Assembly: GCF_003991155.1 (NCBI RefSeq)
Contig: NZ_CP031293.1
Strand: one strand, 5' to 3'
DNA from: Escherichia coli
GTDB taxonomy: Bacteria > Pseudomonadota > Gammaproteobacteria > Enterobacterales > Enterobacteriaceae
Length of the DNA: 64,000 nucleotides
A program made the position numbers. Positions 1-9,000 of this stretch are shown here, piece by piece (the first letter of the stretch is position 1; each line of letters starts with the position of its first letter).

Positions 1-3000
1 GATGTTCGCCAGTTGCGGGCAAAGAAATTTAACACTAACGATAACGGACGAATGATCCTTTCGCAGACGGTTGATCAGGATAATAATCGCCTGACTGACG
101 CGCTGATTTATACTTCTACTGCCAATCGAACCCGCATTTTCCGCGCCCGTTCGGTTGATGTGATTGACCCATCACCCGAGAAACCGACCGTTATGTTGCA
201 CAACGGCACTGCCTATCTTATCGATCATCAGGGGCGTGATGACAACGAACAGATCTACCGTAATCTGCAATTACATCTGAATCCGCTGGATCAAAGCCCT
301 AACGTCAAACGCAAAGCGAAATCGGTCACGGAGCTGGCGCGCTCCGTCTTTCCAGCCGATCATGCCGAACTGCAATGGCGGCAAAGCCGTGGCCTGACCG
401 CATTGTTGATGGCGCTGCTGGCCATTTCATTAAGTCGGGTAAAACCGCGGCAAGGGCGATTTTCAACGTTATTGCCACTGACGTTGCTGTTTATTGCCAT
501 TTTTTATGGCGGTGACGTCTGCCGTACGCTGGTGGCTAACGGCGCGATTCCCCTCATTCCTGGTTTGTGGTTAGTACCCGGACTCATGCTAATGGGCCTG
601 CTGATGCTGGTCGCACGCGACTTCTCTTTGCTGCAGAAATTTTCCCGATGAATGTTTTCAGCCGCTATTTAATCCGTCATCTCTTTCTCGGTTTTGCCGC
701 CGCCGCAGGGCTATTGCTGCCGCTTTTTACCACCTTCAACCTGATTAACGAACTGGATGATGTCAGCCCGGGCGGTTATCGCTGGACTCAGGCGGTGCTG
801 GTGGTGCTAATGACCTTACCGCGCACACTGGTCGAACTTTCGCCATTTATCGCCTTATTGGGAGGGATTGTCGGCCTGGGGCAGTTATCGAAAAACAGTG
901 AGCTTACCGCCATTCGCAGCATGGGGTTTTCTATCTTCCGTATTGCACTGGTGGCGCTGGTTACAGGGATATTGTGGACTGTTTCGTTAGGCGCGATAGA
1001 TGAGTGGGTAGCGTCGCCATTACAGCAACAGGCGTTGCAAATCAAATCGACCGCCACCGCGTTGGGGGAGGACGATGACATTACCGGCAATATGCTGTGG
1101 GCCAGGCGTGGTAATGAATTTGTGACGGTGAAATCGCTGAACGAGCAGGGCCAGCCGGTGGGCGTGGAGATTTTTCATTATCGCGACGATCTCTCGCTCG
1201 AATCCTACATTTATGCACGCAGTGCCACCATTGAAGACGACAAAACGTGGATCCTGCATGGTGTGAATCATAAAAAATGGCTGAATGGCAAAGAAACGCT
1301 GGAAACATTAGATAATCTTGCCTGGCAATCGGCCTTCACCAGTATGGATCTTGAAGAGTTATCAATGCCGGGCAATACTTTTTCTGTCCGTCAGCTTAAT
1401 CATTACATCCATTATTTGCAGGAAACCGGGCAACCCAGCAGCGAATACCGCCTTGCACTGTGGGAAAAACTGGGGCAACCCATCCTGACCCTGGCGATGA
1501 TTTTGCTGGCTGTGCCGTTTACCTTTAGCGCCCCGCGCTCGCCAGGGATGGGTAGCCGTCTCGCTGTAGGTGTCATCGTTGGCTTACTCACCTGGATCAG
1601 CTATCAAATCATGGTCAATCTGGGATTGCTATTTGCGTTGAGCGCACCTGTTACCGCGCTCGGTTTACCGATAGCGTTTGTGCTGGTGGCGTTGAGCCTG
1701 GTGTATTGGTATGACAGACAACATTAAACCCGCCGTGGCGCAACACCACGGCGGGCTCACATTACTGCTTCAGAGTAGCAAATGCCTGAATGATGGCATC
1801 GATTTGCTCACGACTGTGAGCAGCGTTTACGCTACAGCGCAGCAGCGTGATGCCTGCAGGCGCGGCAGGTGGCAGGATAAGATTCACATAAACGCCCAGC
1901 GAAATAAGCTCGCGCCAGATGCGTAAACCGTCCTCTTTCGAACCGATTATTACCGGCACTACCGGGCTAATATGTGAACTTAACTCATAACCCAGTTTTT
2001 GCAGACCGTCATACAGATGGTTGGCATTATCCATCAGCTTTTGCCGCAGCTCTGGTTGTGTGGCAATAGTTCTTAACGACGAGCGCACGGTCGCAATGCA
2101 GGACGGAGAAGGAGAGGCGGTAAAAATATACGGGCGGCTGCCGTAGCGCAGCACTTCCATCGCTTCCGAACCGACAGCAAAACCGCCAATCGAGGCCAGA
2201 CTTTTACTGAAGGTGCCAACGATAATATCCACATCATCTTCAACGCCGACAGCTTCAGCCAGTCCGCGCCCCGTTGCGCCTAACACGCCAAACGAATGCG
2301 CTTCATCGACAATCAAATAACCACCGAGACGACGTTTGATATCAACAATTTCCGCTAACGGCGCAACGTCACCGAGCATGCTGTAGATACCCTCAACGAT
2401 GATAATCGCCTCTTTCGCCCGTTCACCGAGGCGAACCATGCGCCGTTCCAGATCTTTAGCATCGTTATGGCGGAAACGAATAATTTCCGCGCCACCGAGA
2501 GAACAGGCGTCATAAATACTGGCGTGGCTGTCGGCATCCAGTAACACCACGGCGTTATGGTCGGCAAGTGCGCTGATGACGCCTAAATTAGCGGTATAAC
2601 CGGTTGAAAAAACGATAGCGGTAGGGCGATTGAAAAACTCGGCAATCTCTTTCTCTAACGCCAGGTGCGGCGCATAACTGCCGTTTGCCATACGAGAACC
2701 GGTGGTGCCGGTACCTTGGGCCGCTAACGCGGCCTGACCTTCGCTGATGGCATCATGATTAAAGGTTAAACCGAGATAATTATTGGTCCCGGCCAGAATC
2801 ACTTTTTTATTGCCGATCCGGCCTTCGGTGGCGGAATACACTTCATCAATACAGGTGCCAAACGGTGTTAACCCGTTGTCACTAAATTGCAGTCGCTCGC
2901 CAGCAAGGCGCGCATATTTATCGTATAGCCCCATTATTTATTCTCCAGCCATGGAAGTAGAGTTTCCATTAATTGCGCAGGGGTTTTGACATCCAGCAGA

Positions 3001-6000: not shown

Positions 6001-9000
6001 GATATTTAATTTATGAATATATTAAGAAGAAGCCTTGTCCGGTCGCCTTAAATCGACAAAAGGCATTGTGGCGCTTCTGTGTAGTCTCTGACCTTATCGT
6101 AATCATTAATAAATACTATTTATTCGTCGTTTGTATTCATTGGGTTGATTATTAAGGTGCCGTTCGTTGCTGTTGCAACCTGTTTGTCACCGTTAATTAT
6201 TTGTTACCCACAGAACAGAACTATGGAATGCGATCTGCTGATGATTAAAATTGAAAAAGTAATTAATAAAAATGACCTTAAGGCATTTATCGCTTTTCCG
6301 TCATCACTTTATCCCGACGATCCAAACTGGATACCCCCTTTATTCATTGAACGCAACGAGCATTTGTCTGCGAAAAATCCGGGGACGGACCATATCATCT
6401 GGCAGGCGTGGGTGGCAAAAAAAGCGGGGCAGATAGTTGGGCGTATTACCGCGCAAATAGATACCTTGCACCGCGAGCGTTACGGCAAAGATACCGGTCA
6501 TTTCGGCATGATTGACGCCATTGATGATCCGCAGGTTTTTGCCGCGTTGTTTGGCGCAGCGGAAGCGTGGTTGAAGTCACAAGGTGCAAGTAAGATCAGC
6601 GGTCCTTTCAGCCTGAATATCAATCAGGAAAGCGGATTACTGATTGAAGGTTTTGACACACCACCCTGTGCGATGATGCCACACGGCAAACCGTGGTATG
6701 CCGCGCATATTGAACAACTGGGTTATCACAAAGGCATTGATTTACTGGCGTGGTGGATGCAGCGAACCGATCTCACTTTCTCTCCGGCGCTAAAAAAACT
6801 GATGGATCAGGTGCGCAAAAAGGTGACCATTCGCTGCATCAATCGTCAGCGGTTTGCCGAAGAGATGCAGATCCTGCGTGAGATTTTCAACTCTGGCTGG
6901 CAGCACAACTGGGGATTTGTGCCGTTTACCGAACATGAATTCGCGACCATGGGCGATCAACTTAAATATCTGGTGCCGGACGATATGATCTATATCGCTG
7001 AGATTGATTCTGCACCCTGCGCGTTTATTGTCGGCTTGCCGAACATCAACGAGGCGATTGCCGATCTGAACGGATCGCTCTTTCCCTTCGGCTGGGCAAA
7101 ATTGCTGTGGCGTTTGAAAGTCAGCGGTGTGCGAACTGCGCGAGTACCGCTGATGGGCGTGCGCGACGAGTATCAGTTCAGCCGCATCGGCCCGGTGATT
7201 GCGCTGTTATTGATTGAAGCCTTACGCGATCCGTTTGCCCGCCGGAAGATCGATGCGCTGGAGATGTCATGGATCCTCGAAACCAATACAGGCATGAATA
7301 ACATGCTGGAACGCATTGGGGCGGAGCCGTACAAGCGTTACCGATTGTATGAAAAGCAAATTTAATACCAGCTAACTCAGGTTCATCTCCAGCGGCACCG
7401 CCGAGCGAATCAAATGGTGGCCTTCCAGCTCGATATCGTGGAGATTCTTTTTCACGGTCCGCACATGATCGCGTGCTGCGCGCTGGGCGACGTGCGGCAG
7501 CCGCTGCAACACCGCGTTGTAGATCCGCGCATGCTGGCGATCGATCTGCTTTTTTTGCTGTGGTCGATGGTAGAGATTATTTACGCTGGCAAACACTGAA
7601 TTAAACATCAGATCGGTCAATGATTGCAGCGTAAACACCAGCACCTGATTGTGAGAAGCCTGACAAATGGCGAGATGGAAAGCGTGATCCAACTGCGCAT
7701 GTTCGATCAGCGAAATCTCTTTGTTATTCTCACTGGCGGCGAGCATTTTTTCATAACAGCGAGTTATCACAACAAAATCAGCCTGCGTTCCCAGCGTTGC
7801 CGCCAGCCTTGCCGATTCGCCCTCCAGTAATGCGCGAACGTCGAGCAGATCGTACAGCGTTCGCGGCTGCGTGCTGAACAGATGAATTAGCGGGCTGGTG
7901 TCCTGCACCCGATTAAGCCGTGCGACACGAGAATCGCGACCCTGCGCCGTTTCAATAATCCCGCGCCCGCGCAGCACGGTCAGCCCTTCACGCAGTGCGG
8001 AGCGTGAGAAGCCGAGCTTTTCACACAGTCGACGTTCCGAGGGAAGCGGCTGACCGACCTTCAGTACGCCGTCGATAATTAACCGTTCGATACTCTCTGC
8101 AACCACTTCGCAAATAGGGCGACGTTCATCTTTCATTCCCGGACCTCGTGCACAGGTAGGACCAATTTTTCTGTTCTTAACTCGCAAAACACGCACATCA
8201 CGTAAGTGATTATGTTACATCAATTTAACATTGAGTTAACCAAGACAAGGTCACAGAGCTGGAAAAAAAATGGTCTGACCGGTAGCTAAAGAGATAGACG
8301 AAAACGAAAAGCCCGCTTAATAACTGTTCACAGAAGCAGCGCGCAAAAATCAGCTGCCACACAACACAACAAAGCGAAGCCTACTCATGAGCATCTTGTA
8401 CGAAGAGCGTCTTGATGGCGCTTTACCCGATGTCGACCGCACATCGGTACTGATGGCACTGCGTGAGCATGTCCCTGGACTTGAGATCCTGCATACCGAT
8501 GAGGAGATCATTCCTTACGAGTGTGACGGGTTGAGCGCGTATCGCACGCGTCCATTACTGGTTGTTCTGCCTAAGCAGATGGAACAGGTGACGGCGATTC
8601 TGGCTGTCTGCCACCGCCTGCGTGTGCCGGTGGTGACCCGTGGTGCAGGCACCGGGCTTTCTGGTGGCGCGCTGCCGCTGGAAAAAGGTGTGTTGTTGGT
8701 GATGGCGCGCTTTAAAGAGATCCTCGACATTAACCCCGTTGGTCGCCGCGCGCGCGTGCAGCCGGGCGTGCGTAACCTGGCGATCTCCCAGGCCGTTGCG
8801 CCGCATAATCTCTATTACGCGCCGGATCCTTCCTCACAAATCGCCTGCTCGATTGGCGGCAATGTGGCGGAAAATGCCGGCGGCGTCCACTGCCTGAAAT
8901 ATGGTCTGACCGTACATAACCTGCTGAAAATTGAAGTGCAAACGCTGGATGGCGAGGCGCTGACGCTAGGATCGGATGCGCTGGATTCGCCTGGTTTTGA

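What the first reader, a model, noticed from the sequence alone, without database searches (positions are those of the whole stretch)
1..7365. Candidate sphingoid-base / amino-lipid pathway: acyl-AMP ligase, reductase, ACP and alpha-oxoamine synthase operon with a divergent GNAT and paired LptF/LptG-like permeases
Four minus-strand genes with overlapping or near-abutting stops and starts form one operon: a fatty acyl-AMP ligase (4125-5846), an extended-SDR reductase (3214-4128), an acyl carrier protein (2934-3182) and a PLP-dependent alpha-oxoamine synthase (1762-2934). A large GNAT acyltransferase (yghO-like) is divergent, and two overlapping LptF/LptG-like permeases end convergently with the operon. 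No biotin genes are nearby, so the synthase is unlikely to be a true BioF. The enzyme set matches what is needed to activate a fatty acid onto a dedicated ACP, condense it with an amino acid to an alpha-amino ketone, reduce it to an amino alcohol and N-acylate it. That is the logic of bacterial ceramide synthesis described in Caulobacter (Spt, ACP, acyl-ACP synthetase, CerR reductase, GNAT-type ceramide synthase). The permease pair suggests export of a lipid to the outer membrane. As far as I can recall this has not been characterised in E. coli, where the locus is partly degraded in K-12 (yghO is a pseudogene there).
Basis: partly seen in the sequence, partly recalled or inferred. Interest (0 to 1): 0.8.

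Follow-up and report, generated by a model that had tools for sequence, protein, structure and literature searches.

The report
E. coli sphingolipid (ceramide) synthesis locus

Summary
A minus-strand operon encodes a fatty acyl-AMP ligase, an extended SDR, an acyl carrier protein and an alpha-oxoamine synthase. yghO is divergent from it. An overlapping LptF/LptG-like pair converges on the operon across a strong hairpin.

The sphingolipid reading holds:
- The synthase passes NCBI's serine palmitoyltransferase equivalog model and fails the BioF, Kbl and CqsA models.
- The ligase is the crystallised EcFAAL (PDB 3PBK).
- YghO models as a tandem GNAT.
- YghO relatives in other taxa sit beside Spt/ACP/SDR/FAAL genes and beside LptF2/G2-type permeases.

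[quoted passage not shown] That paper names yghO and the SDR as homologues of the Caulobacter ceramide genes. Patil 2021 showed EcFAAL loads its ACP. A 2026 preprint draws the E. coli UTI89 sphingolipid operons beside Caulobacter's when presenting LptF2/G2. PGAP already names the gene spt.

Still open: whether E. coli makes the lipid natively and which lipid it is, and what the co-conserved yghQRST/ytfJ-like/274-aa genes upstream of the window do.

Verdict: real and correctly interpreted, but already known. Interest is low to moderate.

The parts
1..651 (+). 3' part of lptF2, a paralogue of the LPS-export permease LptF. The gene starts upstream of the window.
   Evidence: TIGR04407 LptF 160 bits on the partial product. 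The full-length product from the matching genome scores 318 bits. It is only 29% identical to K-12 LptF.
648..1727 (+). lptG2, a paralogue of the LPS-export permease LptG. Its start overlaps the lptF2 stop by ATGA.
   Evidence: TIGR04408 309 bits. 28% identity to K-12 LptG. The junction was read. This permease type lies next to yghO homologues in 46-47 of 80 loci.
1725..1759 (.). Hairpin with a 16-bp stem (10 G-C pairs) between the convergent stops of lptG2 and spt. Probably a bidirectional terminator.
   Evidence: Terminator scan. Function is inferred.
1762..2934 (-). spt, serine palmitoyltransferase (PLP-dependent alpha-oxoamine synthase), 390 aa.
   Evidence: NF047599 equivalog 599 bits against a cutoff of 500; the BioF, Kbl, CqsA and ALAS models all fall below their cutoffs. 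Best PDB hits are Sphingomonas SPTs. The PLP lysine motif TFSKS, DSHAS, VDEAHS and LLRCS are conserved. The annotated product in a genome identical over window 1-9000 has the same protein accession as BL21(DE3) Spt, which was assayed in PMC9386255.
2934..3182 (-). acpR, a dedicated acyl carrier protein, 82 aa. The phosphopantetheine site is the Ser in DLGLESI.
   Evidence: ACP models hit only below their cutoffs. Sequence read. The annotated product has the same accession as the BL21(DE3) protein, for which PMC9386255 reports a 4'-phosphopantetheine group. Patil 2021 acylated an E. coli ACP (UniProt A0A2X1NC35) with EcFAAL; I did not compare that sequence with the window.
3214..4128 (-). Extended SDR (NAD-dependent epimerase/dehydratase family), 304 aa. 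It is the CerR/'Epi'-type reductase candidate.
   Evidence: Pfam Epimerase 1.5e-22. TGATGFIG and YAKSK motifs. PMC9386255 Table S2 reports 34% identity and E 7e-38 between the BL21 protein and Caulobacter CC_1164. Enzyme activity has not been shown for E. coli.
4125..5813 (-). aasR / EcFAAL, a fatty acyl-AMP ligase that loads the dedicated ACP. Alternative starts are at 5846 and 5852/5855.
   Evidence: NF006624 FAAL 871 bits against a cutoff of 600. 1280 bits over the full length to PDB 3PBK. Transfer to holo-ACP is published in PMC8460268 and PMC9386255.
5814..6222 (.). AT-rich divergent intergenic region between aasR and yghO, presumed to hold both promoters.
   Evidence: GC is 0.41-0.43 in 5501-6500 against 0.48-0.56 in the flanking 500-base windows of the cluster. 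No Rfam match and no repeats. The promoter scan was not above chance.
6223..7365 (+). yghO, a tandem-GNAT N-acyltransferase and candidate bacterial ceramide synthase (bCerS/'Aca'). The start may be at 6241.
   Evidence: No Pfam, NCBIfam or PDB sequence hit. The AF2 model has pLDDT 94.5. Foldseek top hits are tandem GNATs at E about 1e-15. PMC9386255 Table S2 reports 44% identity to Caulobacter CC_1154. Spt lies within 10 kb in 37 of 80 homologue loci.

Best explanation
This is the E. coli version of the proteobacterial ('rhodobacterial') ceramide pathway with its dedicated exporter. The proposed steps are below, each marked as shown or inferred.

1. AasR/EcFAAL adenylates a free fatty acid and transfers it to the phosphopantetheine arm of the dedicated ACP (AcpR), not to CoA. 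Shown in vitro for E. coli FAAL/ACP pairs in published work.
2. Spt condenses acyl-AcpR with L-serine, releasing CO2, to give 3-oxo-sphinganine. Shown for the BL21(DE3) enzyme; the annotated product here carries the same accession.
3. The tandem-GNAT YghO N-acylates the amino group and the SDR reduces the 3-keto group, giving dihydroceramide. Inferred from homology to Caulobacter CC_1154 and CC_1164 and from gene linkage. The order of the two steps is disputed even in Caulobacter.
4. LptF2/LptG2, probably powered by the housekeeping ATPase LptB, extract the lipid from the inner membrane for delivery to the outer membrane. Inferred; shown in part only in Caulobacter.

The cluster appears to be weakly expressed or silent in laboratory culture. 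The native end product in E. coli is not known.
For: Spt identity:
- It passes the Spt equivalog model and fails the BioF, Kbl, CqsA and ALAS models.
- PDB ranking is SPT, then Kbl, BioF and CqsA.
- Catalytic motifs are conserved.

Ligase:
- It matches PDB 3PBK at 1280 bits over the full length.
- EcFAAL loads C12 onto a holo-ACP from E. coli (PMC8460268).

Published work on the E. coli genes:
- BL21(DE3) Spt, AcpR and YghO carry the same protein accessions as in a genome 100% identical to window 1-9000.
- The same paper lists yghO (44% identity to CC_1154) and the SDR (34% to CC_1164) as orthologues of the Caulobacter ceramide genes.

YghO:
- It is a confident tandem GNAT.

Linkage across taxa, among 80 yghO-homologue loci from Enterobacterales, Pseudomonas, Nitrosomonas, Halieaceae, Nitrospirota, Gemmatimonadota and others:
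- Spt, ACP, SDR and FAAL lie within 10 kb in 37, 36, 36 and 43 loci.
- LptF2 and LptG2 lie within 10 kb in 47 and 46 loci.
- In all 48 loci with such a permease, the LptF-like neighbour scores higher with E. coli LptF2 than with K-12 LptF, and the LptG-like neighbour does so in 47. None has pepA nearby.

Exporter in Caulobacter:
- LptF2/G2 bind LptB and are genetically tied to sphingolipid transport. That preprint's Figure 2B shows the sphingolipid operons of E. coli UTI89 beside those of C. crescentus and S. wittichii.

Gene order:
- aasR-epi-acpR-spt is the order implied by Caulobacter's consecutive numbering CC_1165 to CC_1162.
Against: - No sphingolipid has been reported from unmodified E. 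coli in the papers I could read.
- Empty-vector BL21(DE3), which carries the chromosomal cluster, showed no 3-oxo-sphinganine on TLC.
- YghO and the SDR have not been assayed for E. coli.
- YghO matches no curated family model.
- SpSPT Arg378, in the MARPP loop, is Leu here. From memory, that arginine contacts the serine carboxylate in SpSPT.
- EcFAAL was crystallised with a C12 adenylate, so chain length, and therefore the exact base, is uncertain.
- The E. coli cluster has no LptC2, and the Caulobacter head-group genes cpgABC were not seen in it.
- Stankeviciute 2022 and Olea-Ozuna 2021, the primary papers on bCerS and CerR, were not readable here.
Confidence: 0.85

Rival explanations
1. The cluster is a cryptic remnant in E. 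coli. The enzymes work when overexpressed, but the locus is not expressed in nature and contributes no lipid.
For: - Empty-vector BL21(DE3) shows no product.
- The divergent promoter region is AT-rich, GC 0.41-0.43, which is typical of silenced regions (inference).
- K-12 lost the whole region without obvious cost.
Against: - The four-gene operon is intact (at least 80% covered) in 4,067 of 5,426 complete E. coli genomes at 95-100% identity.
- It is syntenic at 62-84% protein identity in Shimwellia, Pluralibacter, Citrobacter, Hafnia, Erwinia, Cedecea, Mangrovibacter and Tatumella, and the same gene layout is present in Serratia. That argues for purifying selection.
- PMC9386255 saw sphinganine-like and ceramide-like spots, which the authors attributed to chromosomal downstream enzymes of BL21(DE3).
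Confidence: 0.1
2. The pathway makes a non-sphingolipid amino lipid or signal, for example a product from another amino acid or a short acyl chain, comparable to CqsA-type alpha-hydroxyketones or N-acyl amino alcohols.
For: - EcFAAL was studied with C12.
- Arg378 of SpSPT is not conserved.
- The native product has never been identified.
Against: [quoted passage not shown]
- It passes the Spt equivalog model and scores far below the CqsA cutoff (221 against 428).
- Linkage to a bCerS-type GNAT and an LptFG-type exporter fits a membrane lipid, not a diffusible signal.
Confidence: 0.06
3. YghO is unrelated to the operon and acts as a protein or small-molecule acetyltransferase, or as the 'DNA-binding regulator' of the K-12 annotation.
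For: - K-12 annotation calls it a putative DNA-binding transcriptional regulator.
- It was included in a screen of candidate lysine acetyltransferases.
- One Shimwellia copy and many Nitrosomonas copies have no spt within 10 kb.
Against: - Full-length tandem GNAT fold with no DNA-binding domain.
- 44% identity to Caulobacter CC_1154, which is required for dihydroceramide synthesis.
- Spt lies within 10 kb in 37 of 80 loci. Where it does not, LptF2/G2 usually do.
- In Nitrosomonas eutropha the spt genes lie elsewhere in the same genome.
Confidence: 0.03
4. The synthase is a BioF or Kbl isoenzyme, and the permeases are spare LPS exporters.
For: - PGAP names the permeases 'LPS export ABC transporter permease LptF/LptG'.
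- The synthase has weaker hits to the BioF and Kbl models.
Against: - The BioF and Kbl models are below their cutoffs while Spt is above.
- No biotin or threonine-degradation genes are adjacent.
- The permeases are only 28-29% identical to the housekeeping pair and track yghO across phyla.
Confidence: 0.01

Closest known systems
Caulobacter crescentus sphingolipid locus CC_1152-CC_1168 (spt CC_1162, acpR CC_1163, epi/cerR CC_1164, aasR CC_1165, aca/bCerS CC_1154, lptG2/lptF2 CC_1155/1156)
   Same: - The same five ceramide genes, with the same order aasR-epi-acpR-spt.
- Published identities to the BL21 proteins are 44% for YghO and 34% for the SDR.
- A second LptF/LptG pair lies inside the locus.
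- A flippase-like gene is nearby: CC_1166 in Caulobacter and the MOP-family YghQ here.
   Different: - E. coli has no LptC2.
- No CpgABC-type head-group genes were seen; the ceramide kinase CpgB is an LCB5/DAG-kinase type.
- E. coli instead carries three paralogous P-loop, dTMP-kinase-like proteins (YghR/S/T), a 274-aa protein with no family match and a YtfJ paralogue.
- Caulobacter makes its lipids in culture. E. coli has not been shown to.
E. coli BL21(DE3) ECD_02850-ECD_02854 (Padilla-Gómez et al. 2022, PMC9386255), EcFAAL (PDB 3PBK; Patil et al. 2021, PMC8460268) and the E. coli UTI89 sphingolipid operons drawn in bioRxiv 10.64898/2026.04.12.717747
   Same: - It is the same locus.
- Spt, AcpR and YghO have identical protein accessions.
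- The FAAL matches 3PBK over its full length at 1280 bits.
   Different: Only allelic differences in the FAAL and the SDR, which carry different WP accessions.
Sphingomonas paucimobilis / S. wittichii soluble SPT (PDB 2JG2, 2X8U)
   Same: - Homologous over residues 3-385 of 390 at 375 bits.
- Same PLP-binding and catalytic motifs.
- S. wittichii SPT also prefers acyl-AcpR.
   Different: - Arg378 is replaced by Leu.
- In Sphingomonas the aasR gene lies far from acpR-spt.
Housekeeping LptB2FG LPS extractor of E. coli
   Same: - Same Pfam family.
- Both paralogues pass the TIGR04407/TIGR04408 cutoffs.
- The overlapping F-G gene pair is arranged the same way.
   Different: - 28-29% identity to the housekeeping proteins.
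- No adjacent pepA.
- Linked to ceramide genes. The substrate is presumed to be a sphingolipid, not LPS.

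Membership tests
Serine palmitoyltransferase, proteobacterial type (NCBIfam NF047599) | Scores above the curated equivalog cutoff and above all sister alpha-oxoamine synthase models | tested here: met
   599 bits against a cutoff of 500. bioF 333/426, Kbl 297/460, CqsA-type 221/428 and ALAS 219/339 are all below their cutoffs.
Serine palmitoyltransferase, proteobacterial type (NCBIfam NF047599) | PLP-binding lysine and the conserved His/Asp/His/Arg catalytic residues of SpSPT | tested here: met
   TFSKS (Lys265), DSHAS (His159), VDEAHS (Asp231/His234) and LLRCS (Arg390) align. 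Arg378 is Leu. Residue numbers were counted from the 2JG2 alignment; their catalytic roles are from memory.
Serine palmitoyltransferase, proteobacterial type (NCBIfam NF047599) | Condenses L-serine with an acyl thioester to 3-oxo-sphinganine | not testable with these tools
   Published for BL21(DE3) Spt, which has the same accession WP_000524970.1. PMC9386255 reports a TLC product with L-[14C]serine and palmitoyl-AcpR.
Fatty acyl-AMP ligase (FAAL) / AasR | FAAL subfamily model passed, and FAAL-specific architecture (insertion, blocked CoA pocket) | tested here: met
   NF006624 871 bits against a cutoff of 600. 1280-bit full-length match to 3PBK, the EcFAAL reference structure in which the FAAL-specific elements are described.
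Fatty acyl-AMP ligase (FAAL) / AasR | Transfers the acyl group to its cognate holo-ACP and not to CoA | not testable with these tools
   Published in PMC8460268 for the EcFAAL-EcACP pair. In PMC9386255, AasREc acylates AcpREc but not AcpRCc.
Specialised ACP (AcpR) | Small PP-binding protein with the modifiable serine, encoded immediately upstream of spt and distinct from AcpP | tested here: met
   82 aa with DLGLESI. ACP models hit at 26-36 bits, below cutoffs of 66-106. The stop overlaps the spt start. The holo form is published for the protein with the same accession.
CerR / 'Epi' keto-reductase of bacterial ceramide synthesis | Extended SDR with an NAD(P) motif and a YxxxK catalytic pair, homologous to CC_1164 and encoded in the aasR-epi-acpR-spt operon | tested here: met
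   Pfam Epimerase 1.5e-22. TGATGFIG and YAKSK. Operon position confirmed. Published 34% identity and 7e-38 to CC_1164. An SDR homologue lies beside yghO homologues in 36 of 80 loci.
CerR / 'Epi' keto-reductase of bacterial ceramide synthesis | Reduces 3-oxo-sphinganine or oxo-ceramide | not testable with these tools
   Not reported for the E. coli protein. PMC9386255 only suggests it.
Bacterial ceramide synthase (bCerS / Aca, CC_1154 family) | GNAT-fold N-acyltransferase of about 375 aa homologous to CC_1154 | tested here: met
   AF2 pLDDT 94.5. Foldseek top hits are tandem GNATs (2WPW, 5KF1, 7Q3A, MshD) at E 1e-15 to 1e-12. Published 44% identity and 1e-107 to CC_1154 over 98% coverage. The Caulobacter sequence itself was not available to me.
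Bacterial ceramide synthase (bCerS / Aca, CC_1154 family) | Genomic co-occurrence with spt | tested here: met
   An Spt homologue (52-98% identity in all but one locus) lies within 10 kb in 37 of 80 homologue loci from many phyla.
Bacterial ceramide synthase (bCerS / Aca, CC_1154 family) | N-acylates the sphingoid intermediate | not testable with these tools
   No assay of E. coli YghO was found.
Sphingolipid-locus LptF2/LptG2 permeases | LptF/LptG-family pair, distinct from the housekeeping pair and encoded in the sphingolipid locus | tested here: met
   TIGR04407 318 bits and TIGR04408 309 bits. 29% and 28% identity to K-12 LptF and LptG. Adjacent to yghO homologues in 46-47 of 80 loci. LptF2-like in 48 of 48 and LptG2-like in 47 of 48 by score.
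Sphingolipid-locus LptF2/LptG2 permeases | Form a complex with LptB and are needed for sphingolipid export | not testable with these tools
   Shown only for Caulobacter, in a 2026 preprint.
BioF (8-amino-7-oxononanoate synthase) | Passes the TIGR00858 equivalog cutoff and sits in a biotin gene context | tested here: not met
   333 bits against a cutoff of 426. No bio genes in the 33-kb neighbourhood.

The most novel reading that the evidence does not exclude
Most E. coli strains, and many other Enterobacterales, make under conditions not yet found a complex sphingolipid whose head group differs from Caulobacter's ceramide phosphoglycerate.

The head group would be built by the co-conserved genes just upstream of the window: the three paralogous P-loop kinase-like proteins YghR/S/T, a 274-aa protein with no family match and a YtfJ paralogue. 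The lipid would be flipped by the MOP-family YghQ and exported by LptB2-LptF2G2.

That would make a roughly 13-gene outer-membrane lipid module that K-12 lost through a single IS5 event. I found no paper linking yghQRST to sphingolipids.
Probability: 0.3. Interest if true: 0.65.

Novelty: already known. Interest (0 to 1): 0.3.

Why it matters
E. coli is usually described as having three major membrane lipids, all glycerophospholipids. Yet three quarters of complete E. coli genomes carry an intact ceramide pathway with its own Lpt-type exporter, and the laboratory K-12 lineage lost it through an IS5-associated deletion. That is worth knowing for outer-membrane biology, host-microbe sphingolipid signalling and the use of BL21 as an expression host. 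These points are already in the literature from 2021 to 2026. This scan adds no discovery; it confirms the locus, gives a population frequency and supplies cross-taxon linkage statistics. What is still open is the native product, the regulation and the role of the yghQRST/ytfJ-like/274-aa genes.

Tried and rejected
- BioF, Kbl, CqsA or ALAS identity for the synthase: rejected by curated cutoffs and PDB ranking.
- Direct family assignment of YghO by Pfam, NCBIfam or PDB sequence search: no hits. It was resolved only by structure prediction and Foldseek.
- First genome scan with a 44-sequence YghO alignment: failed for lack of a conserved stretch. It was repeated with 15 sequences.
- YghR/S/T as homologues of the Caulobacter ceramide kinase CpgB: rejected. 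CpgB is an LCB5/DAG-kinase type, whereas YghR/S/T are P-loop dTMP-kinase-like. YghR has no solved relative by sequence.
- Anti-phage defence role for YghR/S/T, the 274-aa protein, YtfJ or YghO: only P-loop-level noise in PADLOC.
- 274-aa protein: no Pfam match. The single-sequence AF2 model was poor (pLDDT 59), so no fold search was run on it.
- Regulatory RNA or repeats in the aasR-yghO intergenic region: none. Promoter and terminator scans were not above the shuffled expectation overall.
- Stankeviciute 2022 and Olea-Ozuna 2021 could not be read, so statements about bCerS and CerR biochemistry rest on papers that cite them and on my own knowledge.
- Transferring annotation from EBJ003 or strain 50579417 to the rest of the window: failed beyond about position 34,255, where the genomes diverge.

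Full report
**Observation.** The window's first 9 kb is E. coli chromosome. It is 100% identical to several non-K-12 isolates and was confirmed base for base against strain EBJ003.
- the 3' part of an lptF-like gene, ending at 651
- an lptG-like gene at 648-1727, overlapping it by ATGA
- on the other strand, FAAL (4125-5813), extended SDR (3214-4128), ACP (2934-3182) and alpha-oxoamine synthase (1762-2934)

The FAAL/SDR junction is an ATGA overlap, the ACP/synthase junction a TAATG overlap, and the SDR-ACP gap is 31 bases. yghO (6223-7365) is divergent across a 409-base region within a stretch of GC 0.41-0.43. A 16-bp-stem hairpin at 1725-1759 separates the convergent lptG-like and synthase stops. 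The neighbours are glcC and the glc operon, not biotin genes. The FAAL start is ambiguous between 5813, 5846 and 5852/5855. The yghO start may be the Met at 6241, which would give the 374-aa length of most homologues.

**What each protein is.**
- *Synthase.* It scores 599 bits on NCBI's proteobacterial serine palmitoyltransferase equivalog (cutoff 500). It falls below the cutoffs of BioF, Kbl, the CqsA-type synthase and ALAS. Against solved structures, the Sphingomonas SPTs come first (375 bits), then Sphingobacterium SPT (264), Kbl (about 204), BioF (about 174) and CqsA (about 125). The PLP lysine and the His/Asp/His/Arg390 motifs of SpSPT align, but Arg378 is Leu.
- *Ligase.* It passes the FAAL subfamily model (871 against 600). 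It matches PDB 3PBK over its full length at 1280 bits, so it is the 'EcFAAL' used as the structural reference for FAALs.
- *ACP.* It has the DLGLESI serine and hits housekeeping ACP models only below their cutoffs.
- *Reductase.* It is an extended SDR with TGATGFIG and YAKSK.
- *YghO.* It matches nothing in Pfam, NCBIfam or PDB by sequence. Its family is large, with 6,502 representative clusters at E ≤ 0.001. An AlphaFold model built on 44 homologues is confident (pLDDT 94.5). Foldseek places it with tandem-GNAT enzymes such as MshD, the clavulanate tandem GNAT and a glucosamine N-acetyltransferase (E about 1e-15, TM 0.55-0.63).
- *Permeases.* Both pass the LptF and LptG equivalog cutoffs, which is why PGAP names them lptF and lptG. 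They are only 29% and 28% identical to the K-12 housekeeping proteins.

**Evidence from other genomes.** A scan of one genome per species with a YghO alignment returned 80 loci. They came from Enterobacterales, Pseudomonas, Salinicola, Nitrosomonas/Nitrosospira, Halieaceae, Luteibacter, Nitrospirota, Gemmatimonadota, deltaproteobacterial MAGs and others. The counts below are for homologues of the E. coli proteins within ±10 kb.

| Protein | Loci with a homologue (of 80) |
|---|---|
| Spt | 37 |
| ACP | 36 |
| SDR | 36 |
| FAAL | 43 |
| LptF2 / LptG2 | 47 / 46 |

In Nitrosomonas the arrangement is yghO followed by lptF2 and lptG2, with no spt in the locus. The literature places N. eutropha spt elsewhere in the genome. 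In all 48 loci with a neighbouring permease, the LptF-like gene scores higher with E. coli LptF2 than with K-12 LptF (typically about 150 against 55 bits). The LptG-like gene does so in 47. None has pepA nearby. So this is a distinct permease type that travels with the GNAT.

Serratia and Pluralibacter contigs found through exact-protein look-up show the same core in different chromosomal contexts.

**Population and K-12.** The four-gene operon is at least 80% covered in 4,067 of 5,426 complete E. coli genomes. In MG1655 an IS5 replaces 8,389 bp. The deletion runs from inside yghQ, through the 274-aa gene, the ytfJ paralogue, lptF2, lptG2, spt, acpR, the SDR and the FAAL, to the first 40 nt of yghO. 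This explains why the pathway is missing from K-12-based knowledge.

**What is already published.**
- Padilla-Gómez et al. 2022 (PMC9386255) list E. coli B strains among spt-carrying Rhodobacteria. They cloned ECD_02854 (Spt), ECD_02853 (AcpR) and ECD_02851 (AasR) from BL21(DE3).
  - AcpREc carries 4'-phosphopantetheine.
  - AasREc acylates AcpREc.
  - SPTEc prefers palmitoyl-AcpR to palmitoyl-CoA.
- The same paper names ECD_02852 and yghO/ECD_02850 as homologues of CC_1164 and CC_1154. It states that only Caulobacter and E. coli BL21 have all five genes clustered, and tabulates 34% and 44% identity.
- The BL21(DE3) Spt, AcpR and YghO carry the same RefSeq protein accessions as in the genome identical to this window.
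- Patil et al. 2021 (PMC8460268) showed EcFAAL loads C12 onto a holo-ACP from E. coli, and explain why FAALs reject CoA.
- Olea-Ozuna et al. 2024 (PMC11324152) proposed that LptC2/F2/G2 and a flippase in the Caulobacter locus transport sphingolipids.
- Uchendu, Isom and Klein (bioRxiv, April 2026) showed that Caulobacter LptF2/G2 form a complex, bind LptB and could not be deleted. Their Figure 2B shows the sphingolipid operons of E. coli UTI89 beside those of C. crescentus and S. wittichii.
- PGAP already labels the gene spt.

**Mechanism.**
- *Shown for E. coli proteins in published work:* fatty acid plus ATP gives acyl-AMP, which is transferred to AcpR by AasR/EcFAAL. Acyl-AcpR plus L-serine gives 3-oxo-sphinganine through Spt.
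- *Inferred:* N-acylation by YghO and keto reduction by the SDR give dihydroceramide. The order is disputed. LptB2-LptF2G2 then extract the lipid from the inner membrane.
- *Not known:* the native product, chain lengths, head group, regulation, and whether wild-type cells make it. Empty-vector BL21(DE3) showed no 3-oxo-sphinganine. When 3-oxo-sphinganine was supplied by overexpression, sphinganine-like and ceramide-like spots appeared, 'possibly by intrinsic enzymes'.

**Beyond the finding.** Upstream of the window in the same genome lie yghT, yghS, yghR, yghQ, a 274-aa gene and a ytfJ paralogue.
- YghR/S/T are paralogous P-loop proteins with weak dTMP-kinase similarity.
- YghQ is a MOP/Wzx-type flippase-like protein.
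- The 274-aa protein has no family match.
- These genes stay next to the ceramide core in Enterobacterales in at least three different arrangements.
- A betaproteobacterial MAG has FAAL-SDR-ACP-Spt-YghQ, then YghR and YghS on the other strand, then YghO, in a compact block.
- They are not the Caulobacter head-group enzymes. I found no paper linking them to sphingolipids. This is the only part of the locus where something new may remain.

**Verdict.** The novelty claim is not: this is an already described locus of a known kind.

Noticed in passing
Upstream of the window; L001 6390-11550 (yghT, yghS, yghR, yghQ, 274-aa gene, ytfJ paralogue). Also L003/L004, L005, L011, L016, L018, L053.: Six genes stay adjacent to the ceramide core across Enterobacterales: three paralogous P-loop dTMP-kinase-like proteins, a MOP flippase-like protein, a protein with no family match and a YtfJ paralogue. 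They occur in at least three arrangements. YghQ/R/S also sit in a compact cluster in a betaproteobacterial MAG. They are not homologues of the Caulobacter head-group genes, and no paper I found links them to sphingolipids.
   Followed up: partly
Window about -2126 to 6262 (L001 9874-18262) against K-12 L002 8147-9341: In MG1655 a single IS5 replaces 8,389 bp. It removes the 3' end of yghQ, the whole lptF2-lptG2-spt-acpR-SDR-FAAL block and the first 40 nt of yghO. The K-12 'yghO' CDS therefore begins inside IS5.
   Followed up: yes
Window 1-1727: PGAP names the paralogues 'lptF' and 'lptG, LPS export ABC transporter permease' because they pass the TIGR04407/TIGR04408 equivalog cutoffs. They are only 28-29% identical to the essential housekeeping pair. 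Cluster-positive genomes are therefore likely to be annotated with two lptF and two lptG genes.
   Followed up: yes
Window 1762-2934 (Spt residue aligned to SpSPT Arg378): The arginine of the MARPP loop in Sphingomonas SPT is leucine here (NLILPP), while Arg390 is kept. From memory, that arginine contacts the serine carboxylate in SpSPT. Whether the change affects amino-acid specificity was not examined.
   Followed up: no
Window 5813-5855 and 6223-6241: Start codons are uncertain. The FAAL could start at ATG 5813 (PGAP), ATG 5846 or GTG 5852/5855; the crystallised construct has 13 extra N-terminal residues. The yghO homologues are mostly 374 aa, which points to the Met at 6241 rather than 6223.
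   Followed up: partly
L028-L030, L032, L034, L036, L038-L040, L046-L047 and other Nitrosomonas/Nitrosospira loci: In ammonia oxidisers yghO is followed within about 1-2 kb by lptF2-lptG2, while spt/acpR/aasR are not within 10 kb. The GNAT-exporter pairing is therefore tighter there than the GNAT-Spt pairing.
   Followed up: partly
L003/L004 11354-11716 (Serratia liquefaciens): A 120-aa DAGK_prokar (DgkA-type lipid kinase) gene lies immediately downstream of yghO in Serratia. From memory, DgkA-type enzymes can phosphorylate ceramide in vitro. Whether this is the housekeeping dgkA or a dedicated copy was not checked.
   Followed up: no
L009 and L015 (Shimwellia pseudoproteus): There are two yghO copies in one genome. 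One (83% identity) lies in the full cluster. The other (74%) has none of the cluster genes within 10 kb.
   Followed up: no
Window about 7372-34255 and 34200-59000: The rest of the window appears to be ordinary extraintestinal E. coli content. It holds glcC and the glc operon, then a stretch (14086-34255) 97.6% identical to the glcB-glcA-sslE-type II secretion (gsp) region of strain EBJ003, then a capsule (kps-type) biosynthesis and export cluster. The window diverges from the two genomes I compared at about 34,255.
   Followed up: partly
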